Positions 301 to 63,911 of a DNA stretch of 64,000 nt are shown here, piece after piece. The notes below the pieces were generated by a model, which saw nothing but the letters and a program-made list of their open reading frames with translations, made no database searches and was not told the origin of the DNA. The stretch is from NCBI GenBank assembly GCA_030141605.1, contig JAQGDQ010000869.1, positions 1 through 64,000 of the forward strand. Reading direction: 5' to 3'. Position numbers and translations under genes: made by a program. The DNA is from Tubiluchus corallicola. Taxonomy: Eukaryota; Animalia; Priapulida. The stretch's first letter is position 1, and each line of letters opens with the position of its first letter.

Positions 301-3300
301 CTGGAAGTAATTAGGGAACATTTATACGTCTGCCGAGTAATTTTGTGTTCTAGTTTTGAAGCCAGACTGACCTACACATATAAATCACAACCAGACTGAC
401 CTACACATATAAATCACAACCAGACTGACATATACATATAAATCACAACCAGACTGACATATACATATAAATCACAACCAGACTGACATATACATATAAA
501 TCACAACCAGACTGACATATACATATAAATCACAACCAGACTGACATATACATATAAATCACAACCAGACTGACATATACATATAAATCACAACCAGACT
601 GACATATACATATAAATCACAACCAGACTGACATATACATATAAATCACAACCAGACTGACATATACATATAAATCACAACCAGACTGACATATACATAT
701 AAATCACAACCAGACTGACATATACATATAAATCACAACCAGACTGACATATACATATAAATCACAACCAGACTGACATATACATATAAATCACAACCAG
801 ACTGACATATACATATAAATCACAACCAGACTGACATATACATATAAATCACAACCAGACTGACATATACATATAAATCACAACCAGACTGACATATACA
901 TATAAATCACAACCAGACTGACATATACATATAAATCACAACCAGACTGACATATACATATAAATCACAACCAGACTGACATATACATATAAATCACAAC
1001 CAGACTGACATATACATATAAATCACAACCAGACTGACATATACATATAAATCACAACCAGACTGACATATACATATAAATCACAACCAGACTGACATAT
1101 ACATATAAATCACAACCAGACTGACATATACATATAAATCACAACCAGACTGACATATACATATAAATCACAACCAGACTGACATATACATATAAATCAC
1201 AACCAGACTGACATATACATATAAATCACAACCAGACTGACATATACATATAAATCACAAGCAGACTGACATATACATATAAATCACAACCAGACTGACA
1301 TATACATATAAATCACAACCAGACCTTTTGAAAAGGCACAGTTTTTGTGCTGATAAACAATCGTAAGTTATAAGTATTGAATTTTGAAGTTACATTTGCC
1401 CAGACCTGTCATTTTCACAGGGACTGTGTAGTCTAGTGGTCTTGTCGTTGAACTTGTCGTTAAAAAGTCCCCAGTTCAAATCCAGAGCCAGTCCAAATTT
1501 TTCACATAATCTTCAATTCGGATAAGTTTAGTTTAAAAATTCTAAATCCGCGGATTCATTCCAGCATTAATAAATGTCAAAAGTTAAAGCTAGTTGACAA
1601 TGTATTTCTGACGTGGTCAGACAAACAATAGTATTTGCAAATAATAGTTGTAAAATTCAGCCTTAAAATGAAGAGACGACAGCCTTTATTGAAAGTGCTT
1701 ATTTTCTTTCATCGAATTGCTCGAATACGTGGAAAGTGCATTTCACAATGAAACCTCAGCATTTAACTGTTCAGTCCATCACCCACGGGTCAAAGGTCAA
1801 CAATCTCGCATAACTTATATCATTGAGTTCGTCTCATTGAGACCTTTCATTTCATATACAACAACCTACTTTTGGTAGACCCTGGAAGGCATTTGTCTCC
1901 TCGACCCCTATTTTGCCCTTTTAACTGGGTCATAGGTAACAATTCACACTGTAACCTATGCCATTCAATTCGCCTCATCAAGAGCTTTCATTTGTTATGT
2001 TACATGGTACTATTCGTAGACACGTGATTTCTGTTCACCCCATTTTGGTTTTTGTTTGTTGGCTCAGTGCACTTCTGTTTCTGACCCCCATTTTTCGGTT
2101 TTTGCCCCCTAGCGGAAAATTTTACTGCACACACACGTCCCATATTTTGTGACGTGCAAGGCCATGACACCACCTAGCAACATGACAAATATTGTGGCCC
2201 TAGCTCAAAAACTGTGGGAGTAGATGGATCCTAAAGAAAAACAAATGAAGACCCGACCGCTCCGTGACCTTTGACCCGGCAAATCGGGTCACGTGTATAC
2301 GTATATAACTTTGGCCAGAGAGTGCACACTGTGAGTTTTGTATCCCTAGCACTCAGTGTGTAAAAGGTCACAAATTGGGGGGCCCAAATTTTGCATTTTG
2401 GCCCCTCCCTCAGGCGTTTTAAACTGCTTTTTAAAACTGCATGTGCACATCTACCCCACAGTACGCAAATACTTGTGAAAAAATGGAGAAAATGAAAGCC
2501 CTAGGAGATGCGACCTAAAGGAAAAACTGACCCGATGCCCACTGCCCTTCCCCCTTGACCAGTGGTGACTAGTTGTTATACTGGTGTATGTCCCCTGCCC
2601 AGTGCTACCAACCTTGTGAGTTTGGTGACCCTAGCTTCAATGTGGGCATGCGCAGTTGCTGTAGGTCAAAGATTAAGTGTACCACAGCAGCGCGCCTTCA
2701 CGCGTGGGTAAAGCAATGCCGTCTACCGCATGAGTTCAGTAACTTCACTTGTTTTACCTGGAATTTACTTAATTATGCATCAGTCGGAGCGTAGAGTGAT
2801 TTACTAGCAGGATCTTGCTTGGGAACAAGAAAAATGAACTGTGTAAGGTTATATGCTACCTGTTAAAACTGTTACTATTACAACAGCACAGGCTGAGAGG
2901 CGTTGTCCCCTCCTGTCCTGCCCTGTCCTGCTTCTCCTGTCTTGCCAGGTTACATTCTGTTCAATCCTGTCCTATTCTCTTCTACCCTGTCTTGTTCTCT
3001 TCTGCTCTGTCCTGTCCTGTCCTGTCCTGTCCTGTCCTGTCCTGTCCTGTCCTGTCCTGTCCTGTCCTGTCCTGTCCTGTCCTGTCCTATTCTCTTCTAC
3101 CGTGTCTTGTTCTCTTCTGCTCTGCCCTGTCCTCCTTTGTCCTGTCCAGTATTGTTTGATACCCGAGTTAGTTAGTTTAAACATCATTTATTACAGGATT
3201 GGATCACACAGTTTGAACAACATGATTTAGGATCCTCACCACAACAGACTTTATACACTATTTACAAAAACATTTACAGCAAGAATAGACTATAACTACA

Positions 3301-4241
3301 CAAGCTGACAAGTTTTACTACAAGATTACATTAGACATTAGTAGAAAATGACGGTTAGAAAATATTGATGTACGAATATTTAAGACGGGTGCATTTCATA
3401 TCAGATAGTAACTACTGGAAGCGTTTAGTACGTAATATAAAGTCATGTATACATTGGAATATTTTACAGTTAGCAACATAGTTAAATACATCTTTTCCGA
3501 ATAATAACAACTTCGACAGATCATTAGATACCCGAATTGTTCTCGTTACAATTCTGTTCCACTTCATCACGTCTTGAAATGATCTAAAATATTCCACCAC
3601 CTCTTATTCGCCTCTCAACACTCAACACGTACGGTTCTCGACACTTAAATCTCCTCTGTCAAAACGACTCAATCCTTTCTTGTGAATTTTCTTATCGTTC
3701 TGTTCCACGACAAGGCATCATTCTGTTCCGTTCCTAAGGCTTTGTCTCATTTACCTCTTTGATTAGCTGATTTTCAAACTCACCTGTAGCACCATAAGCA
3801 AAAACTGTAGCGTTGTATCCATTGATTACAGACGGTATTAAGCCCTTGGTGGTTTTCACGTAAACATCTTCCTATAACAAGGCAGGTAAACCTAATTAGA
3901 CATCAGATTGGCAAAGAGGAAGTATAAAGTCGAATGCTATGAAAAGGACTGTAGCCTTAGGGCATCTCTTCATTACAGCCTACAAGAACAGAAAACGGTT
4001 TTCTTTATCAGTCTTTAGATTAGATTTTATTTTAATTCAGGGCACATAGTAAACCGGAAGTGGTGCTGACATAGCAGTGTCTAGTTTTATTGCTGGATTA
4101 CTGCTGTGTTTACCTGTCCTGAGAGCAGATTTCTTTCACTGTAGAATTCTGCCTGCCCAATGTCTACAACAGACGTAATAGGCATACGAAGATGATGACG
4201 ATGATGATGATGATTGATGATGATGACGATGACGATGACGA

Positions 4242-4274
<33 letters not shown>

Positions 4275-7200
4275 TGATGATGATGATGATGATGATGATG
4301 ACGGGAAGAGAGCCGGGCACCAGCTGCTTAGGGCACCAAAACACCCTAATCAGACCATGCATGTCCAATAGTAAAGGCAGGGCGCACTCAACCAGACATA
4401 ACCAGATTGACTCAGGCACAATTGATGATGATATAAGTCTTTATTAATCTCTTTTTGCAGGCACAAGTATCTGTACTAACATTATACAATTTTCATAGAC
4501 ACTATACAGAGTGAATTCTACAATATTACATTTACGGATTCTGTAATTAGCTTTTCTAATTTGTACGTATAACATTTCTTACAGTGATATTAAACAAGAA
4601 GAATTGAAGTGCGTGCTAAAATCAAGGTTATTAATGCAGCAAGTTTCATGTCTAGTAACATAAAAATGCAGATAAATTGATATACCAAATTATTAAATTC
4701 CAATTCGATGTTTAAATCCACAAGAGTTACAATCAGTAATCTCAAGAACTACACAAATTTAATCCGTATTTTATTAGAAATTGCCAGCAGGATCTTAAAA
4801 TAAAAGTGTCCTTCACAAAGTAGGTTAGTGCCGATATAAAATTTTCATTTTTCGTCCAACACACGAGATTTAAATTCTCATTTCCCAATTCGTTTAGTAG
4901 TACATTTCGCCTATCGAGTCGAGGCAAAAGACTCGAGTAAATTTATCGTTGTTAAATTTTAACCTAATTAGTACCACGGTCACATAATTAGACCTGCAGA
5001 GACCTCACATAGAGTCTTATCATGCAGTAGGTTCATGCTGTTTCCCACTGTGGTGTTTTTGCCATACTAAATGAAAGACGTAACGACACGCATGAGAGCG
5101 ACTTTTCAGTTTTTTTTTACAAATTAAGAATTCTCTATTCATTTGTACGAAATAAAATATAGAAACAGTTCGCTATAGAAGCTGTTCAATAGCTGAAACC
5201 TTTTTTTTAATTCGCGAAGAGAAGAAAAGACTATTTGTGTGCTAGAAGCAGTAAGGAAGTGGAAATTCCATGGAATAAATCCGTTTTCTATAATCGCGAA
5301 TTTTCACTGTGAATTGAAAATAGTAAATTTAGATATCTGACGAAGAATTGCGTCTTAGGGCAATAGGAAGAGACAAGAAATTCGTATCAAATGGTTGAAA
5401 TATCTATAATAATTTTAAAATTTATGAAAATTATGTTAATTAATGCATGGCCAGTCTGATCTCATTAGAGGTGTTTAATTATCAGAAACACTACGGTATT
5501 ATTCTGGGTTTCACGCATTCATAAACTGCTTTCCTAAGTTTTCGTTTTACTAAATTTTTACTAAAATTAAAATTAAAATTACAACCATACTTCAAAGCGG
5601 AGTAGGATACGAAAATGCATCCTGTTTCTGTTTAAGAGAAGATAGGATGATTTTTCACGTACTACCTCATTTTCAAGTCGGATAAAAAGTATACATTTTA
5701 ACACAATTAATACTGGAAAACGTTTCTGATAATTAAATAATAGATTAAAAACTTAATTAACGGCGGGCGAGGACAACTAATGATGACATCACAAACTAAC
5801 ATAATTTTCAACAGCACAAATATTCCACGAGCGTGTTGCACGTGTTTGTGAAAGCAAAAATTGAAGTATAGTGCTACTGTAAGATATTCAGTGTGTTGAA
5901 CTAAAATTAGGCAAGTTTTAAGATAAAACTTCTAATTTCAAATTTACCACTGTGCTCATGCATGAGTTGTGGAACGCACGTAGTTTGTCACAAAATAATA
6001 CATCTGTTCCCGAGAGGTACAGCACCTGTTTTTTTGTGCAATAAGTTTTGGAAATGCAGGCGCTAATGCCCGTCTAACTAGTGAATGGCGAAATGCATGT
6101 AACAGCGAAGTACAAGAGGCGCGAACGTGAAATTGTGTTTGTGTGGTAATAATTCTTTCATGTAAGTCATTTTTTGGAAAAAAATAGTATGTCTCTTTTC
6201 AATATTTTAAAGAGTAGATTGTTTTAACCTGCAGTTTAAGATTTGGTCTGGTTTTGCTTTAACAATTTGAACTTTGAGTTACTGCGTTTTGCGGAAATCG
6301 CTTTAATAGGATACAGCATATGATCTGAGCTAATGTTGTTCTGCAGTTTAGTATCTCTTTGTGTTGTTCCAAAACAGTAAGAACTAACAAGACGCTGCCA
6401 GCACAAAGCACGATTCTAAAACTAAATGTCATTGAATTTAAACAATGCATAGTATGAAAAACTTAATATAGCTACAATGTCATTGTCTAGGAGAATTTTG
6501 AATAATTCCAGAATTCGATCTCAGCTGCTGACTTAACGGAAGGTTTCAGAAATTTATTTAAAAAGTACAGCAAGTATAAATGAGTCAAAACTTAGCAACA
6601 AGTATCATTTTATTTTACATCGTCGTGTCCTGGTTTCTTAAATGTCCGTCGACAAGCAAAGCTGCAACACGTTTAAATAATCTTGCAGCTCGAAATCCAA
6701 GAAAAAGAGGAGCACCTGGTCACTTATTTGTCAGGAACTCTTCAGAGCCACCTGAATTTTTACCAGAACCCAGAATTGTTGGCGGTGAAACTGTTGTCAA
6801 TAGAGAATTCCCCTATATTGTGGGGCTTCATTGGAAACAATTAAAGCGTTTAGGAAATAATGTGATCTCTGTCCAGGGAGCGTGTGCAGGAATCCTCCTC
6901 AACAACAAATGGGTTTTAACTGCAGCACACTGTGTTAATGATACAACAACTAGGAGTGATTTCAAGATATACCTAGGAAGCAACGTATTCGAGAAACCGA
7001 AGGCTGTACGTTTGGTTTACTATTACAAGATACATCCTGATTACAGATCCATCATTAAGAATAGAGGCATTGAGTATTTTCACGAAGCTGATGTGGCTCT
7101 GCTGCGAATGGATAACAAAGTTGCATTTGATGACGACATTCAGCCTGCTGAACTACCACTTTGTCGAAGCCCTAATTACATGAATGAGACAGTCGTTGTA

Positions 7201-10200
7201 CCAGGGTGGGGGAGGTTACGGGCGGAAGACAAAATAGTGTTATACCGTCCTAATTTACAAAAGATAACAACAAAAGTTGTCGACACTGGAATTTGTGCAG
7301 ATGTTAACCAAACAGTTGCCATCTGCTCATACTCTACAGGCAAAAGCGTTTGCAAGGGAGACTCTGGAGGGCCACTGATACTGCCATCTACAGGAGAAGT
7401 AATCGGAGTTATGTCACAGGGTGAATTCTGCAAAGGTGCTGCCCTCTTCACAAAGATTGGACCGGTTCTTAATTGGATTGAAGATGTACAATTTTATGCT
7501 ACAGCAACAAATTACCAATATGTCCGCTATAACACAGCTTCTGAAAATGGCATGTCAATAATAGGGAATATAAACAAAATATTAATGCTGGTGTATTTAG
7601 CACGATTATACTTCTGTGCATAACAAGTTAATGTGAAACATTATAAGTGTGGTTACTTCACATAGAAATACACAAATTTAATGGAGTTGTACTTACAGCG
7701 TAGGCTCTAGATTTTTGCCAGTCATTTTGAAGTCATTTTGTCTGTATTGTTTAACATAGAAGTTACAATAGAAAAGAAAATGTATTCCTGACACTGGCTA
7801 TGGCTTAACTCCAGATATTCTTACTTGCTGTAAAGCAATTGGCCTCTGAGCATATGAAGTTGGGAAATTTTTGGGCATAGGGGATAAGCTGATTCCTGGT
7901 GTTCGCTTAATAAGATAAGCAAAGATAAGCAACACCAAGTTTGATCAAAATTAGATAGGTGACCATTTTGAAACGGCCTCCTCGAGCTTTTGTCTGCTAC
8001 ACTACCCTTGCAGTTTAGCTCATAAAGAAGGACATTTACACATCCAAAGCTAACTAAAACACCAATTACACCACATCGATCCAATCAAACCTACTGTAGC
8101 CTATAGACAGTAAGGACATTTAGACAAGCAAACTAGAGTAACTTATAACACTTGACAAGGAGCATATTTTAGTGAGTGGTTCAAACAAGACATTTTCAGG
8201 AAAACACTAATGTAAGGCAAACGGATATACGACTGGGTAAGACTTAAAGATCTACTGTTTTTTGGTTCAAAAAGTCAAAGGACTAAGCCACAATGTAAAA
8301 AAATGCTGAAATAATTCGTGTGATAAAAAAAGCGCCGTTGCCAACCTTAGTAGATTCACTGAGCTGCGCATAGCTTTGATTGTTTATAGAAATTTGAGCA
8401 TCCGAGGTAATTATTATTTAATGTAAGCTTTGATATAAAAAAAGTTATTGTAGTTTTCAATATTTTAGAGTATACTTTATTCTGAAGTAAGATTTTGAAC
8501 ATCAAAAATGTTCCACGAACGTGCTACACGTGTTTGTGAAAGAGAAAATTGAAGTACAATGCTACTTTAAGAAATTCAAGGTGTTGTACTAAAACTATGC
8601 ATGTTTCAAGATAAAAATTTCAATTTCAAATTTGCCGATGTGCTCACGCACGAGCTGTTGAACGTGTGCAGCTCGTCACAAACTAACGCAACTAAACTCA
8701 GAGGTAGAGCACCTGTTTTTTGTGCGACGCATTTCCGAAATGCAGGCGCTAGTGCCCATCTAACTATTGAACGGCGAAATGCATGTAACAGCGAAGTACA
8801 AGTGGCGCGAACGTGAAATTACGTTTGTGTGGTAATAATTCTTTCACGTAAGTCATTTTTGAAAAAATAGTATGTTTGCTTTCAATATTTTAAAGAGTAG
8901 ATTGTTTTTACCTACAGTTTAACATTGGGTCTAGTTTTGCTTTACATTTTTTCTAACTAAAACCACAGCATAAAGAGTTTCTAAAATCAACCACAATGTT
9001 TGCTAAGTAAGATCGCTGGTCCGGTAAAATAGCTTAAAAAAACCAAAAGTTAGTCCTTGTAAATATGATCAAAATATCAAGTCCTGGGATGGGTGGCCGA
9101 ATGGCAGACTTCGGCCTGCAACCACGCAGTCTTGAGTTCGAATCTACAGGCTGACAATGCCTTGGCATATACCGTACATGTTATTCGTGGTTTGTTTCTA
9201 CCTGTACTGTTGTAAGTCCCTAATTTTTGTTATTAACAATGATACATACAGTAAAATAGTATAAAAAAGAAATCAACAGACGCATGCGCTCTTACACTGA
9301 TCCTATAAAACATAAAATTTTAGACGGTAGATTGTTTTGACCTACAGTTTGAGATACTGTCTGGTTTTTCTTTACATGTGCTTATATGTAGTAATAAATT
9401 AGTATCATAGTTACACGGTCTATGTCAAGAATTCTGACAAATCTATCATTTTCAGGTTAATAAGATGCCAGCAAATACCTGTTCTTCTAAACAAGAACTA
9501 ATTTGCCGCCAGGTTAGCCGTAAAGTTTTACGTAACGTAAATTTTTCGCACAAACATTTCACATCGTCTCGACGTTGTTGGGTCACCCCGTGACCCCCAA
9601 ACCTTTGTCAGTTTACGTAAGAATTACGTCTTACGGCAATAGGAAGGGACAAGAAATTCGTATCAAATGGTTGAAATCGCTATAATAATTTTAAAATTTA
9701 TGAAAATTATGTTAATTAATGCATAGCCAGTCTGATCTCATTAGAGGTGTTTAATTATCAGAAGCACTACGGTATTATTCTGGGTTTCACGCATTCATAA
9801 ACTGCTTTCCTAAGTTTTCGTTTTACTAAATTTTTACTAAAATTAAAATTAAAATTACAACCATGCTTCATCCATAAAATGTGTACTTTTTATCGTACTT
9901 CAAAATGGAGTAGAATATGAAAATCCGTCCTGTTTCTGTTTAAGAGAAGATAGGATGATTTCTCATATACTACCCCATTTTCAAGTCCCATAGAAAGTAT
10001 ACATTTTAACACAATTAATACTGGAAAACGTTTCTGATAATTAAATAATAGATTAAAAACTTAATTAACGGCGGGCGAGCCCAACTAATGATGACATCAC
10101 AAACTAACATAATTTTCAACAGCACAAATATTCCACGAGCGTGTTGCACGTGTTTGTGAAAGCAAAAATTGAAGTATAGTGCTACTGTAAGATATTTAGT

Positions 10201-13200
10201 GTGTTGTACTAAATTTAGGCAAGTTTTAAGATAAAACTTCTAATTTCAAATTTACCACTGTGCTCACGCATGAGCTGTAAAACGCGTGTAGTTTGTCACA
10301 AAATAATACAGGTTTGGCGAAAAATTAATGATAGATTTAGCTTTTACACATGGTAGGTCCCTCATCGCGCACGTGTTACGGTGACTGGTTTCTGATTGTC
10401 CATAATACTCCACGGTGCGTAATACTTACACCATTTGCTGCTTCGAGGTTTCTCACCCAGAACGCGCCTGATGTATGCTGGCACGAGTCAATCTCGAGGA
10501 TCGATAATCAATCAATACTCCTTTACCACGCCGCTACAAGCAGTTTCATTCATGAACGCGCGGTGATGCGATCGTTTCTTGATTGAAAACCTTGCTAAGG
10601 ATGAATGCTGTTTTGAGTTGAGTAAGTGCCCGGACAAAATTTCCCAGAGTTTCAAATGTCAAGAAATTCTTGGTGCTTGGTACTGAGAAATTGCTTGTTG
10701 CATTTCAGTGACTAGTGGAGTAGAATTGTAACCTAGCCACTGGGGGGGGGGGAAGCCAGCCCAACACAGTGCCGGTCCCAAGCCCGGATAAATAGGGAGG
10801 GTTAGGGTCAGGAAGGGCATCCGCCTGTAAAAACTGCGCCAAAACCTTCTATGAATGAGTCGATGAGACTTAAAGGTAAAGTCCACAAAGAAGTGGTCAG
10901 ACCCGCTCTAATCTATGAGCTGGAAGCAGCTTCTCTAAAGAAGACCGAAGAGACGAAAATGGGTGTGGTGGAGATGAGGATGTTGAGATGAATGGTGGGA
11001 GTAACAAGAAGAGATAAAATTAGAAATAATAATATCAGAGGAACAGTAAAAGTAGTGGAAGCCTCGCAAGATTGCGATGGTATGGACACCTGATAAGAAG
11101 AGGCGGTGAGACTTAAAGGGAACGTCCACAAAGAAGTGGTCAGACCCGCTCTAATCTATGGAGTCGGTGAAGATCTTGTGGGAATTGAAGACATAAATGA
11201 AGAGATGGTCAACAACAGTAATGCGTGGAGAAGACTCATTCACAACGGCGACCCCGAATAGGGAAAAGCTGGGAAGAAGAAGTGGAGTAGAATTGTACGG
11301 GGGAATAGTAAGTGAATAACCATTTGTGGGCTGCAGTGAAGATGGCAATATTTAGTGAAACTGGTTTCGTTGAGCTGAATTAGGCTGATGCAACTGATGC
11401 ACGTATTTATACCAACAGAGAAACAAGCCGTAGCCGTAGACTCAACAACAACAACAGCACCGCCACGGCCACCACTAGCAGCAGCCATAACCACAACAAC
11501 AACATAGTAGCAATAGCAGCAGCAACAGTAGCAACAACAACAACAACAGTACTGACTACAACAGCATCAACAACAACAACAGCAGCAGCACCGCCACCGC
11601 CACCACTAGCAGCAGCCATAACCACAACAACAACACAGTAGCAATAGCAACAACAACAGTAACAACGACAGCAAAAACACCAGCATCACCAACAACACCA
11701 ATAACAACAGTAACTGCAACAACAACAACAGCAGCAGCAGCAGCAGTAGCAACATTAATAACGGCAACAACAGTAACAGCAGCAGGTAAAACAACAGCAT
11801 CAGCAACAACAGCAGCATAGTGTAGTAATTGACTGTATTCGATTGTTTGTTGGAAAATCTCAATAAGATCAGAAATTGCAAAGCCCAAACTCCCACGCAT
11901 AACAATGAGATAAATTCAGCGTACTACGACTGTGTGGCAGCTTTGACTTTGTTGTGTCTAGAATCTAGTCCAGTGGTTCCCAAACTTTCTCGGACCGTTA
12001 CCCAAATTGGGAAACCCGGTCGTGTCCATTACCCCCCACCTAGTACTACTTCTCCAACTCAAAGAAGAAAACTACGTAAAATGCATTCCGAGCGAAGTTT
12101 TAAAAATTTTCAGAGGGGTGCCCGTTATCCTCCCCCCAAAAAAACATATTACCCCGGGGGGTAATTTACCCCTACTTTGGGAACCACTGATCTAGTCTGT
12201 GGCTTACTGTTTTGATTTGTATAATTTTTTAATTTGTTTTTGTTTATTTTGTAGTTCAGAAGAACAGTCCTTTTTCTGCCTTATAAGCTTGCCTTGTTAG
12301 TTTGTGCCTTGAAACTTATTTTGGTAGTGTTTATAATAAACTTCTGGGTAGAGTGAACATTTTAAATGTCACATCTATACTCTTATATTAATATTCTTGG
12401 TATATTTATATATATACATACATATATATATATAAGATTCGAGGCTACAGCCCGGACGAGGGCACCATTTGCGGCGATCTATATATCAAACGAAAGGTCT
12501 CGATCTAGTGTCGTGCCATTGATGGTTTATTTTTCGAATCGGGCCCACCGGGAGGAACGGAGGGCGAAAAACCTCCAAAAATGGCCCTTTTTCGGCCGTT
12601 TTTTGCAAAAAATTGCAAAGTTGTACGGCTGAGATGTAGAGAACGGGAACGGGCCGAGGGGGGTACTGGGTATGGATAGATAGCCCGTTCAGCGGTGGGT
12701 GTAGTAGGCATATTTAGAATTCCCGAGAGGGCCAGGGCGCCCCGCAACGGGCGTTTTCCCGGACCCAACTCGCGATTTTTTCGAAATTTAGACCAAACAG
12801 CATGCGGGAAAAACGTTCTAGCGGCGCCTGGTGGGACTCTAGGAATAATAATTATTGTACGGTGGTTCATCGATACGTAGTATCATGTATCATGTACATT
12901 AGAGGTAATTACTGCAGTATGTTTTACATTAATGATGAGATACATTCCACTAGCCTACTGATCATTACGTAACCGGAATTCCAGTGGGGGACTTTTACCT
13001 TTTGCTGTAAACGCGACCACTTACACGGCTTAATTGCTTTGGCAGTAATTTGACAACAGCAACAGCAGCAATAGCAACAGCAACAGCAACAACAACAACA
13101 GCAGCATCGACAACAATAGCAACAACAACAACAGCAGCTTCGACAACAAACAATAGCAACAACAACGACAATAGCAACAACAACAGCAACAGCAACGACA

Positions 13201-17400: not shown

Positions 17401-20400
17401 CAAGTTTTAAGATAAAAAATTAAATTTCAAATTTACCGCTGTACTCATGCATAATAGTTTCTGACGTCATATGACATAGAGCCCATTTTCGTGACATCAC
17501 GTGTTTAAGCAGTAACACTTACGCAAATGTGCTTGACGCGCAAGGGAAGACGCCTGCCATTGCGCAAACTGAGGTTAGTTTCTGACGTAAGCAATACCTG
17601 TGTTTGGTTGCCGTTAATTAACTTTCTAAGCTAATTATTCAAATACAAGAAAGAAATGTTAACTTTTACAGGCGAGAAAATGTACATTTTGGACAGTAAA
17701 TTAAACGAGATTGAGTCCAAACAATCGTCCGGTTTTCCTTTAAGCTGTAACTTTTCATATCACTGGCTTCTATAACAGCAGTTACTCTCCCTGGGTAAAA
17801 TGATGAAAAATAAATCAGGAATTAGTCACCAGCCATTTTAATTATTAATTTTCAATTGGCTGATGGAAGGTATTTATCAGTGGTTAGGTGAGAAAGCGCC
17901 GGCTAGCATACCTGTCGGTTGCCAGGATACCAGACTCACCTATGAATCGATAACCATTAACTGATAATTAAACAAGTTCTAGAAGCAACTGAGACGCCTA
18001 GGTCTGGCATAACTTACAGATCAGGTAAACACTGCCGTCTTATTGCATACAGGGCTTGCGTTAGTAGCAACTCTGTGTAAAACTAGTAAATTTAAACTCC
18101 AGCGGCAACAGATGGGTGCGTCATTTTAATTATAATGCCTTTCAAACAAGTTTCGATAACAAATTTGAAAAAACAAAGTATTCGTAGCACGTTTCATGCT
18201 AAGGAAAAGTTTGAATTACTTTAACCTCGTAAAGAAAATCAATAATGGGCTTTTCAAACAGTGTCGTTTTACCAGTTGGCTGAATATTTCAAATTATTAA
18301 GTATTTTTTCTAGTTACTTAAGCATTTCAAGCAGGAATGTCTATTGCTTTATCATTGTATAAAATAAATCACGTTGAAAACACCGGTTCTCGTCTGATCA
18401 CCGAAGTTAGGCAACGTAGAGCCTGGTTAGTACTTGGATGGTGATCGCCTAGGAATACCAGATGCTGTAGGCTTGCGGGATGCCCACATTGTATCTCGAC
18501 ACTAGGCGGAGGAGCTGCACAAGCAGCCAACGGCTAGAGGGCGGAGGAGGTCAAGTGACCCAGCGGCCATGTGTACAGGAGTAAACCTTCCAAATCAGGA
18601 GTGGAGCCCCGAAGGCGGACCAGTGCAGCATGCTCACTGACTCCGGCAGCTCCTGCAGCCAACCTGGTGCCAAACGTATCGCTCCGCTTTCCTTTGGACT
18701 ACACCAGGGAGGAAGAGAGGGGGTTCCTGTTGTATGGGCAACTCACGCTCTCCATACACCTTGCCCAGGCGTGTGCCCTCGAGACGTCCAAGGGTCGCAC
18801 TGCTCAGCCATAGTCGACGCTGCAGCTCCATCAATGTGATCAATAACTGACTCTCTTGGCGCACTCGGACGTCCCGAGACAGAAGGATGCTAACCACACC
18901 AGCGAGGAAGAGAGGGGGTTCCTGTTGTCTGGGCAACTCAGGATCTCCATACACCTTGCCCAGGCGTGCGCCCTGGAGACCTTCAAGGATCGCACTGCTC
19001 AGCCACAGTCGACGCTGCAGCTCCATTAATGTGATCAATGACTCTCTTGGCGCACACTCGGACGTCCCGAGACAGAAGGATACCAACCAACCACATAAAA
19101 AATTCTTGGCGATATATTTTAAAATTCTTTTTACTTTCCCTCCAATACGCAAAACAAATGAAATTTCAATGTTTAGTTTGTTATACAATACGGCTCACCA
19201 CAATCTGGAATCAAGTATTCAATAGCTTAATCAACGTTGATAGTTGTGGCAAGACCGAACATTAAATCTATCCCCTCTAAGATGAGTTACAGAAACTGCT
19301 CCATTTACGAAGGGAACAACCAATGGCAAGTAAAACTACCCTCAGAAAGAATCAAACATACTCACTCCATCCATCTACAGGCCAGTACCGGCAGTGCTTA
19401 ACTTCGGCCGCAAATCGGCCGTGACCTCGCAGCTGTTCACCTCGCCTCTGAGATGGGCTTCTTAAACCGAGAATGTTTATTATTTTTACTGAACATGCAA
19501 TAATCAATAGTCACCATCACGCTAAGAAATTAAAGAATGAAAAATTTAACACAAAAAAGTCTAAAAGTGAATTAGATCCGTTCCGTCAATTTCATGCACT
19601 GACACACCGGACAAGTCACTAAATTAGGTGTAACATGGCGTTACTAAATTGCTGACCAACTGAATTGTTGACCAAATGCTGCAGAATTCTGTCTTTAGTA
19701 ACTTGGGTCTTCTGTCATACCCTAAACACGATGAGAATTAACACTTTTGCAACGAATGAAAGGGGGACCATATTACCGTTTGGTCAACGTGATTATTATT
19801 CAGGTGACATTGGTGAGTTTTTCGTCTTTTGTCACCCTTTAATACGTGATATCAATTTTTTTCATTACCATTTTTAAAGCACAAGAAAACCGTTCGCTTA
19901 CATAAAGCTTAAAAATTCGTCTTGAAACCTTATATCACTGACATACTGCCTTTTTGCTCACACGGCTCGCGTCGGCAGTAACGCTGTACGAAACTTGTAA
20001 ATTTAAACTCCCGCGATGACCGTTAGGCGCAGCCATTTTAATGGTAGGTCGTTCGAAACAAGTTTAGATAACATTGCGCGAAGTTTGAAAAAATAATTAG
20101 AGCATTTGTAGCACACATCTTGCTAAATTTTAAATTACTGTATCTTGTCAAAAAGATTAAAAATGCGTTTTTGGTTAGTGAGTGGCGCACCCTGGAGGGT
20201 GAGTCAACGACATTTTACCAATGTCGAACATTTTAATTATTATGTCTAGTTACATAAGTTTTTCCAGCAGGTAAGTGAAATGCTAGGTAAAATAACTTTG
20301 CATTTAAAGTTTTTTTTGGAACATAATTCAACATTTCTTTTTCTTCCCCTGATTTTTATGTTGTGCGTATATGACATCATGCAATGGCGCAGTCGAAACA

Positions 20401-23400
20401 ATATTACGGGAGATTTAAATGAAAACAAACAAAAATTCGTTTCAACACAAATATGATAAACGCATAAAAATGCTGTAAAGTAATATAATTGGTTAAGCCG
20501 ATTTTTCGGAAACCTACATCAGGTACCCCTTTTTTGTCCTTTAATGTACGTGGCTTAATTGAGAATTGAGCTTATGAATAAGATGTGAATAAATTGTCGT
20601 AACTAAGGCAATTACTGGTGCTCTAATTTGCGTGATGGAGACTTGGACCTGTCTGTGTTAAATGCACTGCCTCGGCTTCTTTAGCAAAGAATTGAGCCCT
20701 GCAGTGGCAACACTAATTGAAGTAGATATTTGTCCACTAACCAAGATTGTTTACTGTGTTGCACGTGTCAGCGGTGTCACGTGATCGTAATGTAAACCAG
20801 GACAAAAGATTTCTCATCGTACTGGTGACAGAGACATCGCCAGTAACAGATGTTGAATTGTAAATTTGGAAAGGAATAATTTTTCAGCGAAGAGGAAGGT
20901 CGGTGTCTTTCTCTCCTGTCCCCGCGAGACACGCACGACGTCTTACGGATTAATTAAGCTGTTATGGGTAATTATTTATTTATCATATTTTTAATTATCA
21001 AAGCTTATGAACGACGAGTTACTAGTACGAAGATGATTCATAACTCTGTTATTATTAGGCTCTATCATAGGTAAAGTGTATACTATATCCAGGGGCGTAG
21101 CTAGATTCTAAATTTGAGGGGAGCAAGCGCATAAAAAGGGCGCCGTGACAGGGGCGTAGCCAAGTTCTAAAGTTAGGGGGAATCAAGCACATAAAAAAAG
21201 AGCCGTGACAGGGGCGTAGCAAAGTTTTAAAGTTAGGGGGAACAAGCACATAAAAAAGGGGCCGTGACAGGGGCGTAGCCAAGTTCTAAAGTTAGGGGGA
21301 ACAAGCACATAAGATAGGCACCGTGACAGGGGCATAGCTAGATTCTAAATTTGGGGGGAGGAGCAAGCACATAAAAAGGGCGCCGTGACACGTACCAAAC
21401 AGTTTTTAACGTGCTGATTATACATTTTAATTTTGCGTTTAAAATCAAAACACGAGGAAGACACAGGTTTAAAGGAAGCACATAATTCTTATTTTGCATT
21501 TAAAATTAAAACGTAATAAAAACGTTTGTGTTACTTAATTATTTTAATTTTAAACGTCGCACAAGTGAAGTAAAGAGTTAAAAATTGTTGAAAAGGTGAC
21601 TATTTTGAAAAATGTCATTAAGGGGAGCGCTCCCCCTGCTTCCCTTCTTAGCTACGCCATTGGCTATACGTTTTACTATTAGAAGACAATTATGTACGGA
21701 AAGACATTTGTCATAACATCACGGTTAATAATAATGATCATGATGGTGAGGAGGAAACCGACGATGACGGCGACGACATTGATGATAACAATAATAACAA
21801 CAACAACAATAGCAACAACAACAACAGCAACTGCAGCAACAACAACAACTGCAATAGCAGCAGCAACAACAACAACAACAGCAGCAGCAACACCAACAAC
21901 AACAGCAACAACAACAACAGCGACAATAACAACAACAGCAACAACAGCAACAACAGCGACAATAACAACAACAGCAACAACAACAACAGCAACAACAGCG
22001 ACAATAACAACAACAACAACAGTGACAGCAACAACAACAGCAACAACAACAACAACAATAGCTAGTAACAATAATTAAAGAAACAAAACTAGTCACCCTT
22101 TCCAAATTTCTCTAATACACGAAAGAAAACATTTTCACAAATGTATAAGTTGCTTACAATCACTTAAATAAATGTATTGTTACTGCGTGAGCTACAAAGT
22201 CCATGGTACTGAAAACACGTTGCACAAAACGCGTTCTGACACGTCAAAAAAGGCTCATTTTACAGCCCGAATGACGAATTCGGGTTTTACATTGGTGCAT
22301 TAAACTATTAACATTATTATATTTTCATATTTACTTTCTGCTTGCGCGAATGAAACAGAAAAAATTTTGTTGTTTCTAACCGCATTTAGATTCCATATTA
22401 GGAGATTTAGGCTCCCCATAGTTTCTCTACGAAAACAGTGACGTCACTGACGTGAGTTAGTTAAAGTAAAGATCAACTCACTGAATCGTCCACCTTGTGA
22501 GCAATGGGAATTGAACCAGCTATGATCTCCTCTTCGCTCAGCGGTCTGATTCGAACAGCAACCTGCAAATAGCAGCATTATTGTATACAATACAAAGACC
22601 CAAGAAAGATTTTGTGCAAGTTTCCCTACTCAATTGCGGGTCGCCATGTTGCCGCTAACAGCACCTCGCAATATCGCTTTTCATTTGTGCCGTGCAATGA
22701 AATAAAATTTATTTTAAAGAGAAAATTATATACTGCATTGCACGTGAATGACTAGAAACAGTGTAGCATGGTGCTCCCTGGACGACACAGTGGTCCAGGC
22801 TTCAAAAGGGAGACTTGCACTATAACGTTATAGTCAATAATCTGTTTTTGCATTGACATAGATTGGAAAGGGCTTGTCTCTGTAATTTTCTACATAAGTT
22901 GCAGGCAAAACTACAAATCAGAATAAAATGTATTGAGATTAATTTACACTAGTACACAATCAATTTTTTGTTGTCAATGTCAAGTTAATTCAATGTGATT
23001 TTATTATTGTCTTGCTGAAACTACTGTTCTGCTGTCGGATTCTCACCGCCAGGGTAGTTAGAATGACCTCTGGACGGTTCGGACCAGAACTTTCGGTGGG
23101 GGAGAGGCCCCTGTTCGAATACCACATTCTAAAACGAGATTAGTAAACCGAACGACTGGGACACATTCACCATCTTTGAAAAAGGGGCATAAGACTCGAC
23201 CAAAATGCTTCACTGATTTTTGTTGATGATTAAATGAGAAAAACTTGAAATTAGCAAACTGCTATTTTTATAGTGAGTGAAACTTTACGATGAATCTTGA
23301 GTAACTGACTAAACACAGAAAAACACAAAGAGTAAACTGCTATTTTTATAGTGAGTGAAACTTTACGATGAATCTTGAGTAACTGACTAAACACAAAAAA

Positions 23401-24476
23401 AACACAAAGAGTAAACTGTTATTTTTATAGTGAGCGAAACTTTACGATGAATCTTGAGTAACTGACTAAACACAAAAAAAACACAAAGAGTAAACTATTA
23501 TTTTTATAGTGAGTGAAACTTTACGATGAATCTTGAGTAACTGACTAAACACAGAAAAACACAAAAAGTAAACTGTTATTTTTATAGTGAGTGAAACTTT
23601 ACGATGAATCTTGAGTAACTGACTAAACACAGAAAAACACAAAGAGTAAACTGCTATTTTTATAGTGAGTGAAACTTTACGATGAATCTTGAGTAACTGA
23701 CTAAACACAAAAAAAACACAAAGAGTAAACTGTTATTTTTATAGTGAGCGAAACTTTACGATGAATCTTGAGTAACTGACTAAACACAAAAAAAACACAA
23801 AGAGTAAACTATTATTTTTATAGTGAGTGAAACTTTACGATGAATCTTGAGTAACTGACTAAACACAGAAAAACACAAAAAGTAAACTGTTATTTTTATA
23901 GTGAGTGAAACTTTACGATGAATCTTGAGTAACTGACTAAACACAGAAAAACACAAAGAGTAAACTGCTATTTTTATAGTGAGTGAAACTTTACGATGAA
24001 TCTTGAGTAACTGACTAAACACAAAAAAAACAAAAGAGCAAACTGTTATTTTTATACTGAGTGAAACTTTACGATGAATCTTGAGTAACTGACTAAACAC
24101 AAAAAAACAAAAGAGCAAACTGTTATTTTTATACTGAGTGAAACTTTACGATGAATCTTGAGTAACTGACTAAACACAAAAAAACAAAAGAGCAAACTGC
24201 CCTCGAGGGGTTACCAAACTCTCACATTTGCACCGAAACAGTTGGGAAGTCCTGAGAGGGCGGATGCAGGCTTGTCCTGTTCGGGGCTCAAATCACGCAA
24301 CCTCTGAACTCAAGTAAACAGAATGTGGCAATTATATTTATAGACTTTGCGCAAGTGAAATAGGTAAGTACTTGAATTTGAGCCAATCAGAAGGTAGGAT
24401 TTGTGAATTGATGCAGGTAAGGCATCTTACATATTGATATGCAGGAGTGTTTTACTTTAATGTGACTTTGTAGTGG

Positions 24477-32026: not shown

Positions 32027-33288
32027 CAGTCAAACCTCTTAAATGGTCCCTCTGAAATGCCGACCTCGCTTAACACCAGGGGTAGCATCGAACGCTCGAA
32101 TCCAGTTCGCTTTGTGGTAGGGCATGCTCACCCCTAACACCAGGGCGAGCATCGAACGTTCGAATCGAGTTCGCTTTGCGGTAGGGAATGCTCACCCCTA
32201 ACACCAGGGCGAGCATCGAACGCTCGAATCGAGTTCGCTTTGCGGTAGGGCATGCTCACCCCTAACACCAGGGGGAGCATCGAACGCTCGAATCGAGTTC
32301 GCTTTGCGGTAGGGAATGCTCACCCCTAACACCAGGGGTAGCATCGAACGTTCGAATCGAGTTCGCTTTGTGGTAGGGAGTGCTCACCCCTAACACCAGG
32401 GGTAGCATCGAACGCTCGAATCCAGTTCGCTTTGCGGTAGGGCATGCTCACCCCTAACACCAGGGCGAGCATCGAACGTTCGAATCGAGTTCGCTTTGCG
32501 GTAGGGAATGCTCACCCCTAACACCAGGGCGAGCATCGAACGTTCGAATCCAGTTCGCTTTGCGGTAGGGAATGCTCACCCCTAACACCAGGGGTAGCAT
32601 CGAACGTTCGAATCGAGTTCGCTTTGCGGTAGGGAATGCTCACCCCTAACACCAGGGGTAGCATCGAACGTTCGAATCCAGTTCGCTTTGCGGTAGGGCA
32701 TGCTCACCCCTAACACCAGGGGTAGCATCGAACGTTCGAATCGAGTTCGCTTTGTGGTAGGGAGTGCTCACCCCTAACACCAGGGGTAGCATCGAACGTT
32801 CGAATCGAGTTCGCTTTGCGGTAGGGAATGCTCACCCCTAACACCAGGGGTAGCATCGAACGTTCGAATCGAGTTCGCTTTGTGGTAGGGAGTGCTCACC
32901 CCTAACACCAGGGGTAGCATCGAACGCTCGAATCCAGTTCGCTTTGTGGTAGGGAGTGCTCACCCCTAACACCAGGGGTAGCATCGAACGCTCGAATCCA
33001 GTTCGCTTTGTGGTAGGGAGTGCTCACCCCTAACACCAGGGGTAGCATCGAACGCTCGAATCCAGTTCGCTTTGCGGTAGGGAATGCTCACCCCTAACAC
33101 CAGGGGGAGCATCGAACGCTCGAATCGAGTTCGCTTTGCGGTAGGGAATGATCACCCCCTACTCAACATTCAAACTTTTGGCAAAACTAAAGTGTTTATT
33201 TGCATAGACATGTATGTATTAATGCACCGTGTTATAATGCCAAATTTTACAGGAGTCCTAAAGTAGGTGAAATAAAGAGGGATAACTG
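32027..33288. mobile_element. Tc1/pogo-type MITE hosting a satellite array
   Basis: Ends TA|cagtcaaacctctt and aagagggataactg|TA. Confidence 0.6.
32071..33162. repeat. 64-bp satellite, about 17 copies; each monomer is a mini-MITE
   Basis: Unit taacaccaggggtagcatcgaacgttcgaatcgagttcgctttgcggtagggaatgctcacccc. Confidence 0.95.
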
Positions 33289-42579: not shown

Positions 42580-50536
<7,957 letters not shown>

Positions 50537-61500: not shown

Positions 61501-63911
61501 GCTGCTGTGACTTGAAAATTTTTTGCTTTTGTTGCCGAAACATTTTTAAAGTCCTCGTACAACGTTTGCATGTCAACTTTCTTTAGCTGGGAGGTGAGTG
61601 TCTAATTTCACTGTTTAATATTTTCAGGTTTCCCTTCGGAACTAAAAACTTTACTCGAATGTGAAAGAATAATTAAAGTTGGAGTCGGAATTCAGGGGTA
61701 AGCGGGCTTATATCGGCTTAATATCATAAAAATCTGATTATTAGCAGCCACTTTGTGGTGCTAGTGTCCTAAAATTCCTTGACAAAAGTGCAAATTACAA
61801 AGCAAAATTAATCCAAACTTGTGAAGCGTCTAAAGATGTTTCTTTCCAAGATGTTTAGTTTTTCCAAGATGGACAAATTGTTTCGGAAATCCATTTTTTC
61901 TAGAAGGTATTTGTGCTATTTTTGGGAAATTAGGGTGAAGGAGGTTCACAAAAATGCTCATAGTCCTTCCAAGAAACCAAACTGTGTACCTTGTGCTGAA
62001 TGCCTCATGTAGCATCTCTTGCAATCTTATTCTCAAAATCTTAGTTGTATAAGTTTTGAAAAAATGGGCAAGAATGGCAATTTTTAGAGGTTATAGTTCC
62101 TCCCAGAAGTCCCGAATTGAAAAATAAACCTCATATGGGACTGGAGGAGACCGAGATGGTTCGATCGATGTGCCATTTGTGACAAATGATTCAGTAGTTA
62201 TTGCAAAAATGGTGTATTGTACAAATATACATACATCCACAAATAAAATATACCTGGAGCATAAAGTTGCAATTGTGAATGTATTACGTATGTTATACGA
62301 GTGCTCGTGTAAAACAATGCTATCATGTTTTGATTGTCTGCAAGCTGTGCAGTACATTGTACAATCACAATAATATTATTGTCAATGTGTGTATATGTAT
62401 ATATGTGTATGTACACACATTGACAATAGTATTATTGTGATTGTACATTGCACTGCACAGCATTACTAATATATAAATATATATATATATTGGTAATATT
62501 GTTATTATATGTACACACGCATGCATGCAACACACACACACACATATATATTTAGTGAAGCAGCAGACCTACAGCTTATTATGTAAACAAAACATTTCTA
62601 ATAAAGATGATTGATTTTGAGTGAGCTTTTAATTCAGAAATGATTGACTTAATAATTTTCTTTTAATAATGAACATTTAGAGTGAAATTTGAGGACCCTA
62701 ATCTGTCTACACTTGTTTGACTGTTTTGTGATTCATCTCTGGCACAATTTAACACACCTCATTATAACGCTGAACTCGCTGTAACGCCAACTATTTTCTG
62801 GCTACAAAGTGGGCAGTATAAAAAGATTTGACTGAGTGTAGATTGGTGGTATTCGTAACAGTGGATGAAAATTCATGTCATTCATGCTGCAGGTATAAAA
62901 AGATTTGACTGTGTGTGTGTAGATTGGTGGTATTTGTAACAGTGGATGAAAATTCATGTCATTCATGCTGCAGGGATAAAAAGATTTGACTGTGTGTGTG
63001 TAGATTGGTGGTATTTGTAACAGTGGATGAAAATTCATGTCATTCATGCTGCAGGTATAAAAAGATTTGACTGTGTGTGTGTAGATTGGTGGTATTTGTA
63101 ACAGTGGATGAAAATTCATGTCATTCATGCTGCAGGGATAAAAAGATTTGACTGTGTGTGTGTAGATTGGTGGTATTTGTAACAGTGGATGAAAATTCAT
63201 GTCATTCATGCTGCAGGTATAAAAAGATTTGACTGTGTGTGTGTAGATTGGTGGTATTTGTAACAGTGGATGAAAATTCATGTCATTCATGCTGCAGGGA
63301 TAAAAAGATTTGACTGTGTGTGTAGATTGGTGGTATTTGTAACAGTGGATGAAAATTCGTGTCATTCATGCTGCAGGTATAAAAAGATTTGACTGTGTGT
63401 GTAGATTGGTGGTATTTGTAACAGTGGATGAAAATTCATGTGATTTATGCTGCAGGTATAAAAAGATTTGACTGTGTGTGTAGATTGGTGGTATTTGTAA
63501 CAGTGGATGAAAATTCGTGTCATTTATGCTGCAGGTATAAAAAGATTTGACTGTGTGTGTAGATTGGTGGTATTTGTAACAGTGGATGAAAATTCATGTC
63601 ATTTATGCTGCAGGTATAAAAAGATTTGACTGTGTGTGTAGATTGGTGGTATTTGTAACAGTGGATGAAAATTCGTGTCATTCATGCTGCAGGTATAAAA
63701 AGATTTGACTGTGTGTAGATTGGTGGTATTTGTAACAGTGGATGAAAATTCAGGTCATTTATGCTGCAGGGACTTGCAGAAGCTTGAAAGGGATTATGGG
63801 ATATCGTCTACAAGTATAATCGACAAAAGCGTGGTAGATCTAAGCAAGTTTGCCAATTCCATACTCCACTGCTGCGAAACGTGGAGCTTAGATGGACTCT
63901 GCAAACACGTG
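58516..63911 (+). CDS. WRN: Werner syndrome protein WRN (or WRN-exonuclease), 5' part; exons 58516-58572, 59227-59360, 60522-60682, 61628-61697, 63770-63911; continues beyond window end
   Basis: The spliced translation reads RKRKLPAW...LPELIFPG...VGLDIEW...AVLQLC...CYVFHL...FPSELKTLLE...KVGVGIQG|DLQKLERDY...ETWSLDGLCKHV. DEDD exonuclease motifs ExoI (DxE) and ExoII (D) are intact. Introns are GT-AG with phases 0,2,1,2. Whether a helicase domain follows cannot be seen in this window. Confidence 0.9.
58632..59175 (+). mobile_element. Kolobok/T2-like MITE in the first WRN coding intron
   Basis: Ends TTAA|aggaagacaggat and atccggccttgct|TTAA. Confidence 0.78.
59227..59360 (+). CDS. WRN: WRN coding exon 2
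   Basis: KLPELIFPGKFEYVHQSSECNFICYEIL; ttacag acceptor, gtaagt donor. Confidence 0.88.
60051..60447. mobile_element. hAT (Charlie/Buster-type) MITE in a WRN intron
   Basis: TIRs caggggtgtgcaaa / tttgcacacccctg; perfect 8-bp TSD gtttacga. Confidence 0.9.
60522..60682 (+). CDS. WRN: WRN coding exon 3 (ExoI motif)
   Basis: VGLDIEW...AVLQLC...CYVFHLSCMK; acacag acceptor, gtgagc donor. Confidence 0.92.
60851..61411 (-). mobile_element. Full-length copy of the same 5S-derived SINE, in a WRN intron
   Basis: 5S head at about 61287-61406, the same body and a (ccaa) tail. Flanked by the direct repeat atgatagt (60843-60850 and 61412-61419). Confidence 0.88.
61628..61697 (+). CDS. WRN: WRN coding exon 4
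   Basis: FPSELKTLLECERIIKVGVGIQG; ttttcag acceptor, gtaagc donor. Confidence 0.92.
62812..63769. repeat. 77-81-bp minisatellite, about 12 copies, ending at the WRN exon acceptor
   Basis: Unit gcaggtataaaaagatttgactgtgtgtgtgtagattggtggtatttgtaacagtggatgaaaattcatgtcattcatgct. Confidence 0.96.
63770..63911 (+). CDS. WRN: WRN coding exon 5
   Basis: DLQKLERDYG...ETWSLDGLCKHV; ctgcag acceptor, gtaaca donor. Confidence 0.9.

What the first reader, a model, noticed from the sequence alone, without database searches (positions are those of the whole stretch)
10714..10806. Retroelement 5' end falls exactly on a twister ribozyme cleavage site
Seen: immediately after the left TSD the element starts AACCUAGCC and folds as a type-P1 twister. 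P2 is CCUA(10732-35)/UAGG(10793-96), P3 is CACUG/CAGUG, P4 is CCGG/CCGG with loop UCCCAAGC, followed by AUAAA and GAGGG for the pseudoknot. Established: twister cleaves U|A in the UAA of L1, and twisters are reported to process 5' ends of RTE-clade elements in Schistosoma. The inserted sequence is thus precisely the 3' cleavage product, and the target site resupplies the U (tgt|aa). The flanking aauug pairs poorly with the P1 3' strand (uuagg), so this copy may be weak or inactive. Inference: in this invertebrate, ribozyme activity of each new copy depends on whether the target site rebuilds P1.
Basis: partly seen in the sequence, partly recalled or inferred. Interest (0 to 1): 0.82.

Follow-up and report, generated by a model that had tools for sequence, protein, structure and literature searches.

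The report
Twister-headed mini RTE retrotransposon copy
A 551-base, many-copy jumping element made of the two ends of a longer retrotransposon begins, within one base, at the predicted cut site of a self-cutting "twister" RNA that likely frees it from host transcripts; this arrangement is already published for a blood-fluke element.

Summary
Rfam twister-P1 matches 10725-10805 (58.1 bits, E 6.9e-13, below the 67.2 gathering score). P2, P3, P4, both pseudoknots and both catalytic bases are intact, but P1 has one Watson-Crick pair. The duplication is 17 bp and includes A+1, so the junction lies at the cut site or one base inside it. Contigs of this family join unrelated flanks at 10730. The element (10730-11280) is a non-coding, bipartite RTE-like derivative.

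It is also doubtful: P1 is reported dispensable, and P1 flaws did not lower cleavage in a screen of 1948 natural twisters (PMC5408937, PMC11662667). If this copy is weak, a predicted 9-pair flank invasion of the core is a likelier cause.

One lead I did not find in print: a downstream hairpin may take P1's 3' strand; covariation was not significant. The scan noted three such elements on other genomes. Verdict: new member of a known kind.

The parts
10714..10729 (+). Left target-site duplication (16 bp; the exact repeat runs on to A10730, 17 bp)
10730..11280 (+). Bipartite non-autonomous RTE-like element, 551 bp, stops in all three + frames
10729..10731 (+). Predicted cleavage site U|AA; A10730 is the predicted general acid
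   Evidence: alignment; chemistry from PMC8501958 section 19
10730..10801 (+). Twister core: P2 10732-35/10793-96, P3 10738-42/10767-71, P4 10772-75/10784-87, pseudoknots 10736-37/10782-83 and 10777-79/10799-10801, G10797 the predicted general base
   Evidence: the 3-bp pseudoknot register and G10797 are read from the sequence against the Rfam consensus (the register printed was off by one)
10802..10806 (+). Would-be P1 3' strand (TTAGG); poor match to flank 10724-28; also part of a predicted 7-bp misfold with 10732-38
10802..10830 (+). Candidate downstream hairpin that would take the P1 3' strand (8-base arms around GGA-AGGGCA-TCC); weak in this copy
10704..10715 (+). Upstream flank complementary to 10733-10744 (9 Watson-Crick pairs in 10 positions, plus 2 G.U): predicted copy-specific trap
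10866..11101 (+). Broken fragments of the C-terminal end of an APE-RT ORF (36.5% over 63 aa to residues 865-927 of the L005 ORF, E 5e-10; a further 11-aa piece at residues 938-948)
11088..11160 (+). Internal duplication of 10844-10917 (74 bp, 89%); several family contigs skip this stretch
11245..11280 (+). RTE-like 3' end ending in GAA repeats; the same kind of end in L003 and L007
11281..11297 (+). Right target-site duplication (17-bp exact match)

Best explanation
This is one copy of a high-copy, non-coding element built from the 5' and 3' ends of an RTE-like LINE, and its 5' end coincides with the predicted cut site of a twister ribozyme that likely cleaves the element out of read-through host transcripts. 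Shown: the twister sequence, the TSD, the family-wide junction at 10730, the bipartite make-up, and traces of a longer partner whose ORF continues upstream of 10865. Inferred: upstream host transcription; cleavage at N|AA during transcription; the 5'-OH product is copied by the partner's APE-RT from the GAA tail, so new copies start at AA. Also inferred, about 65%: the ribozyme works as a near-P1-less twister. The new flank would then tune activity mostly by occasional misfolding of the core, not by having to rebuild P1.
For: Twister match at E 6.9e-13. P2 is fully paired in four different sequence versions among 7 tabulated copies (window, L003, L004, L008), and has one mismatch in the other three. 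Loose ends before 10730 in 14 contigs of X1 and 12 of X3 have low agreement (0.49, 0.53), meaning different flanks. Depth steps up at 10730 in all 4 runs laid: X1 1239 to 7227, X3 29.5 to 134, X4 1383 to 2449, X6 2.7 to 16. L002, an unrelated 284-bp element, has a 13-bp TSD ending exactly at T|AA. The same head precedes APE(-RT) ORFs in L003 and L005. Loose ends before 10865 in X2 and X4; the X4 one reads as the preceding ORF residues (translated by eye). Cleavage at the same site, in vitro and in yeast, is shown for Perere-3 variants. P1 tolerance. None of 7 tabulated copies has more than 2 Watson-Crick pairs of 5 in flank P1. Random flanks form P1 with probability over 0.5 in only 27-30 of 400 trials.
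Against: No cleavage or RNA evidence for this family. The score is below Rfam's gathering cut-off. Of the two related loci with a convincing TSD, L007 starts 30 bases upstream of its degenerate twister; the other 5 of 7 metagenome loci gave no convincing TSD. X1-X3 are one sample and may be the window's own source; the loose-end tables were cut (305 rows hidden), and contig depth is no copy number. T stands at -1 in 5 of 5 copies with intact AA, which hints at some target-site bias. Without pseudoknot energies the active-like fold lies 8.3 kcal/mol above the ensemble and 5.6 above the 7-bp misfold. RTE-clade placement was not tested by tree.
Confidence: 0.85

Rival explanations
1. First reader's and Liu et al.'s model: same element and ribozyme, but each copy is active only if the target site rebuilds P1, so this copy is weak for lack of P1.
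For: Proposed in PMC8501958 sections 21-22. That paper calls P1-less cleavage inefficient, and its variants differ in rate. P1 here is 1 Watson-Crick pair plus 1 wobble.
Against: P1-less twisters cleave at almost wild-type rate (PMC5408937 passages). No relation was found between cleaved fraction and P1 length, stability or flaws (PMC11662667 section 32). In PMC8501958 itself, five genomic variants with different flanks gave reporter output comparable to variant 3A, whose flank pairs poorly with P1 by eye.
Confidence: 0.3
2. The element supplies its own P1 substitute: the strand after GAGGG pairs with a downstream arm ending GTAA. This helix would stack where P1 stacks and block the P2 slip-misfold.
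For: Left and right arm lengths are equal in 8 of 10 matches (permutation p 0.005, not corrected for kinship). The arms were not fixed by the pattern. 93% of cells pair in six 7/7 sequences, against 23-42% when partners are slid. Perere-3 shows a hairpin of the same layout with a different inner sequence (supplementary table 4, by eye). Its in vitro enzyme strands stop 8 bases after GAGGG and lack the arm.
Against: No pair changes on both sides; 500 of 500 shuffles reach the paired percentage. Folding z-scores run from -1.64 to +0.84. RNAalifold on 10 sequences did not predict it. In this copy TTA pairs downstream with probability about 0.03. L009's hairpin leaves the P1 strand free. The hairpin may instead serve translation or protein binding after the cut.
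Confidence: 0.25
3. The 5' end is a transcription start from an internal promoter, and the twister is a passenger or inactive relic.
For: No activity data here. L007 carries 30 bases upstream of its twister inside its TSD.
Against: The catalytic core is intact and P2 changes are compensatory across families. The junction coincides with the cut site here and in L002. L007's twister is degenerate (32 bits, insertion in L4), as expected if loss of cleavage lengthens the 5' end.
Confidence: 0.1

Closest known systems
T-variant twister ribozymes at the 5' end of Perere-3 (RTE clade), Schistosoma mansoni; Liu et al. 2021, PMC8501958 (abstract, sections 17, 18 part 1, 19-22 and supplement parts 1, 99, 104 read)
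   Same: Type-P1 twister core with a poor, TSD-derived P1; TSD abuts the AA; non-specific insertion; P1 3' strand begins TT.
   Different: Here the carrier is a 551-bp non-coding internal-deletion family, not the full LINE; different P2 and P3 and downstream sequence; GAA rather than GTAA tail; another organism; no activity tested.
Bipartite non-autonomous RTE LINEs (Bov-A, RTESINE, WALLSI3); Kojima 2018, PMC5786205 (passages read)
   Same: Only the 5' and 3' parts of an RTE LINE are kept; the paper says such elements usually keep the LINE's 5' end and suggests 5' ribozymes as a cause.
   Different: That paper cites HDV-like ribozymes and holds no occurrence of 'twister'. This element also keeps about 240 bp of broken ORF end.
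Canonical type-P1 twister (Rfam RF03160) and the P1-less 'mini-twister' (Kosutic 2015; seen only as described in PMC5408937 passages)
   Same: All core stems, both pseudoknots and both catalytic bases.
   Different: P1 is essentially missing; L3 is long and G-rich; the score is below the gathering cut-off.

Membership tests
Canonical type-P1 twister (RF03160) | Covariance-model match at the gathering score (67.2 bits) | tested here: not met
   58.1 bits, E 6.9e-13, full model length
Canonical type-P1 twister (RF03160) | P1 stem | tested here: not met
   1 Watson-Crick pair and 1 G.U of 5
T-variant twister (Liu 2021: core kept, up to four P1 mismatches) | P2, P4, L4 and both pseudoknots intact | tested here: met
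   3-bp pseudoknot read from the sequence
T-variant twister (Liu 2021: core kept, up to four P1 mismatches) | AA at the cut site and G of GAGGG present; at most four P1 mismatches | tested here: met
   A10730, A10731, G10797; 3 mismatches of 5
T-variant twister (Liu 2021: core kept, up to four P1 mismatches) | TSD directly next to the AA | tested here: met
   within one base; family junction at 10730
T-variant twister (Liu 2021: core kept, up to four P1 mismatches) | Site-specific self-cleavage | not testable with these tools
   needs a cleavage assay
Bipartite non-autonomous RTE LINE | 5' part matches the 5' UTR of a single-ORF APE-RT LINE | tested here: met
   89.7% over 78 bases to L003; endonuclease domain in L003, endonuclease plus RT in L005
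Bipartite non-autonomous RTE LINE | 3' part is the LINE's ORF end, 3' UTR and short-repeat tail; no intact ORF; TSD | tested here: met
Bipartite non-autonomous RTE LINE | The internal deletion is shared by many copies | tested here: met
   diverged contigs cross the 10864/10865 junction in X1-X4 (table 8); no count available
Bipartite non-autonomous RTE LINE | Partner RT falls in the RTE clade by phylogeny | not tested
   no named RTE reference among the 120 listed homologues; clade assigned from layout and tail, by recall
Pol III SINE (tRNA, 5S or 7SL head) | Small-RNA-derived head | tested here: not met
   no tRNA in the window; no such Rfam match at 10650-10900

The most novel reading that the evidence does not exclude
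RTE-borne twisters are natural P1-less ribozymes that build their own P1 substitute. A conserved downstream hairpin captures the P1 3' strand and stacks under the pseudoknot, so cleavage is independent of the insertion site. This would overturn the published idea that the target site licenses each copy; the Perere-3 test-tube constructs were cut short of this hairpin.
Probability: 0.25. Interest if true: 0.55.

Novelty: new member of a known kind. Interest (0 to 1): 0.22.

Why it matters
As it stands, it extends a published arrangement (twister-made 5' ends of RTE elements) from Schistosoma to a non-coding family in another eukaryote. It helps explain why bipartite RTE derivatives keep the exact LINE 5' end and need no promoter of their own. 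A high-copy family with many different flanks is a ready panel for an open point on which papers disagree: whether the target site must rebuild P1. If the downstream hairpin replaces P1, it would show how a ribozyme cut at its own 5' edge stays usable wherever it lands.

Tried and rejected
No genome is held, so copies could not be tabulated from an assembly. No second copy lies in the window. No RNA holder was listed, which is no evidence on expression. Viral contigs gave nothing: 0 matches for two patterns, and 0 of 12 candidate stretches confirmed for the L005 protein. MFE and alifold folding neither recover nor test the pseudoknotted fold. A circularly permuted (P3-type) reading using the downstream TAA was rejected by eye, because no P2 partner follows it. 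The T fraction at -1 could not be computed from contig depth (overlapping contigs, cut tables). Hairpin covariation was not significant. The CHiTA supplement, which may hold measured cleavage for close relatives, could not be read. The Liu supplement holds no occurrence of the downstream motif; its figures and tables 1, 5 and 7 are pictures. A look-up of earlier findings by sequence gave nothing. Paper searches for a downstream hairpin or P1 substitute in RTE twisters (and finds) showed none. McKinley et al. 2024 on flanking sequence (Biochemistry) was seen only as a citation and may bear on it.

Full report
Observation. Rfam's type-P1 twister model matches 10725-10805 over all 68 positions at 58.1 bits, E 6.9e-13. 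This is below the family's gathering score of 67.2, which is why the whole-window scan listed only three 5S matches. P2 (4 of 4), P3 (5 of 5) and P4 (4 of 4) are Watson-Crick throughout. L4, the AUAAA strand and GAGGG match the consensus, so both pseudoknots, the acid A10730 and the base G10797 are present. P1 is nearly absent: G.U, U-U, U-A, A-G, A-G. The flanking direct repeat is 17 bp, not 16, and includes A10730. For this copy the junction is therefore fixed only to the cut site or one base inside it.

The element. 10730-11280 is 551 bp with stops in all three + frames. After a 5' UTR piece it carries broken fragments of the C-terminal end of an APE-RT protein (36.5% over 63 aa to the 1019-aa ORF of L005, E 5e-10; domains). 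It also has a 74-bp internal duplication and a GAA tail. It is highly repeated: 3546 contigs of run X1 were laid on the 901-base stretch, with depth near 190 on the flanks and mostly above 100,000 inside (depth is no copy number). Diverged contigs cross the junction between UTR and ORF fragment in all four runs, so the deletion is a family trait. Loose ends before 10865 in X2 and X4 show longer relatives; the X4 one reads, by eye, as the preceding ORF residues. I file it as a bipartite non-autonomous RTE-like LINE of the sort reviewed in PMC5786205 (passages). The clade was not tested by tree (one search gave no named reference). The organism was not determined.

Is the junction general? In one search the listed loose ends at the 5' edge lie before 10730 (14 contigs in X1, 12 in X3; agreement 0.49 and 0.53, so many different flanks); 305 rows were not shown. 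In one search depth steps up at 10730 in 4 of 4 runs. Loose ends there lie at 10729 (5 contigs in X1), 10730 (1 each in X3 and X4), 10728 (4 over three runs), 10724 (1) and 10719 (2). I read the upstream ones as chance likeness to this flank. Copies cut short at the 5' end would not have been laid. X1-X3 are one sample and possibly the window's source; X4 is a second sample and study and holds the same insertion. Both T and other bases thus precede the AA, but the share cannot be counted.

Related elements elsewhere. Seven metagenome loci, three contigs in bacterial assemblies and one more carry the same head. All 10 loci searched match twister-P1, in 11 places, all below the gathering score (L010 was left out as a near-duplicate of L008). 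Two of the seven metagenome loci have a convincing TSD. L002 (284 bp, 13-bp TSD) starts exactly at T|AA. L007 (19-bp TSD) starts 30 bases upstream of a degenerate twister. P2 is fully paired in four different versions among 7 tabulated copies, with changes on both sides, and has one mismatch in the other three. No flank gives more than 2 Watson-Crick pairs of 5 in P1, and T stands at -1 in 5 of the 5 with intact AA. In L006 and L007 the base before AA is C.

Mechanism. The likely cycle is read-through transcription from host DNA, cleavage at N|AA, and copying of the 3' product by the partner's endonuclease-RT, which leaves a TSD abutting AA. PMC8501958 shows this for Perere-3 in vitro and in yeast. 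It states outright that the TSD forms the 5' strand of P1 and that activity depends on the insertion site (sections 19-22).

Whether P1 is needed. That inference is also contested. The same paper shows C, G and A*AA cleave, and five genomic variants with different flanks gave comparable reporter output. PMC5408937 reports near wild-type rates without P1 (passages). PMC11662667, which characterised 1948 natural twisters, found no relation between cleaved fraction and P1 length, stability or flaws, and tolerance of all bases at -1 (sections 32, 33, 38). On the other side, PMC8501958 calls P1-less cleavage inefficient and found variants 3A, 4A and 7A slower. In my folding controls only 27-30 of 400 random flanks formed P1 with probability over 0.5, so a strict requirement would leave few competent copies. 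That is possible, but it is not shown.

This copy. It may still be weak, for another reason. Flank 10706-10715 is complementary in 9 of 10 positions to 10733-10742, which holds the P2, pseudoknot and P3 5' strands. Predicted invasion is 0.59-0.74, reached by 14-21 of 400 random flanks at three transcript lengths. The overall energy gap to the active-like fold is less unusual (76-93 of 400 as large). A 7-bp slip helix, 10732-38 with 10800-06, also competes. These models omit pseudoknots and Mg2+. Upstream hairpins lowered cleavage in the CHiTA screen, so flank effects of this kind have precedent.

A lead I did not find in print. The strand after GAGGG begins with TT in all 11 matches, and an arm ending GTAA follows the inner GGA-AGGGCA-TCC hairpin. 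Arm lengths are equal in 8 of 10 matches (L010 dropped as a duplicate; p 0.005 uncorrected for kinship). Six 7/7 sequences pair in 93% of cells, against 23-42% for slid partners. Perere-3 shows the same layout with a different inner stem (ATGGGG/CCCCAT, by eye), and the paper's in vitro strands end before that arm. But no pair changes on both sides and shuffles do as well. Z-scores are unremarkable, alifold did not predict it, it is weak in this copy, and L009's hairpin leaves the strand free. I give the P1-substitute role 0.25. The searches behind 'not found in print' were made; the library lacks most subscription papers, and the CHiTA supplement was unreadable.

Verdict. This is a real T-variant twister at the head of a bipartite RTE-like family: a new member of a known kind. 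Three earlier notes of this scan describe the same arrangement on other genomes (unchecked AI notes, not evidence). Interest 0.22.

Noticed in passing
window 18357-18897 (+), 61406-60849 (-), 55063-54947 (-): Three 5S rRNA-like heads. The first two continue into about 550 bp shared at 90%, as a 5S-headed SINE3-like repeat would; the third shares only the head.
   Followed up: partly
window 6580-7623 (+): Uninterrupted 347-aa ORF with a full trypsin domain (PF00089, E 1.3e-40), 3.1 kb upstream of the element on the same strand.
   Followed up: partly
L007 24-53: A full-length APE-RT element whose 19-bp TSD lies 30 bases upstream of a degenerate twister; the extra 30 bases include a GACGTAAAA motif like the downstream arm and could pair with the P1 3' strand.
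   Followed up: no
L003 1-797: The 3' end of one RTE-like copy lies about 20 bases before the twister head of the next: a tandem pair or a collapsed assembly.
   Followed up: no
L008, L009, L010, L015: Twister-headed RTE-like DNA on short contigs inside three bacterial genome assemblies, most likely eukaryotic contamination.
   Followed up: partly
L004 (reverse strand, near position 690 of the turned sequence): A second copy of the downstream RTE 5' motif without a twister in front, behind a different head, like SINEs with an RTE-derived middle.
   Followed up: no
window 362-1324, 23237-24200, 32071-33158, 46213-46929, 47260-48950, 62816-63772: Several tandem arrays with 90-99% alike units, and other dispersed repeats such as 5343-6002 / 9619-10310.
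   Followed up: no
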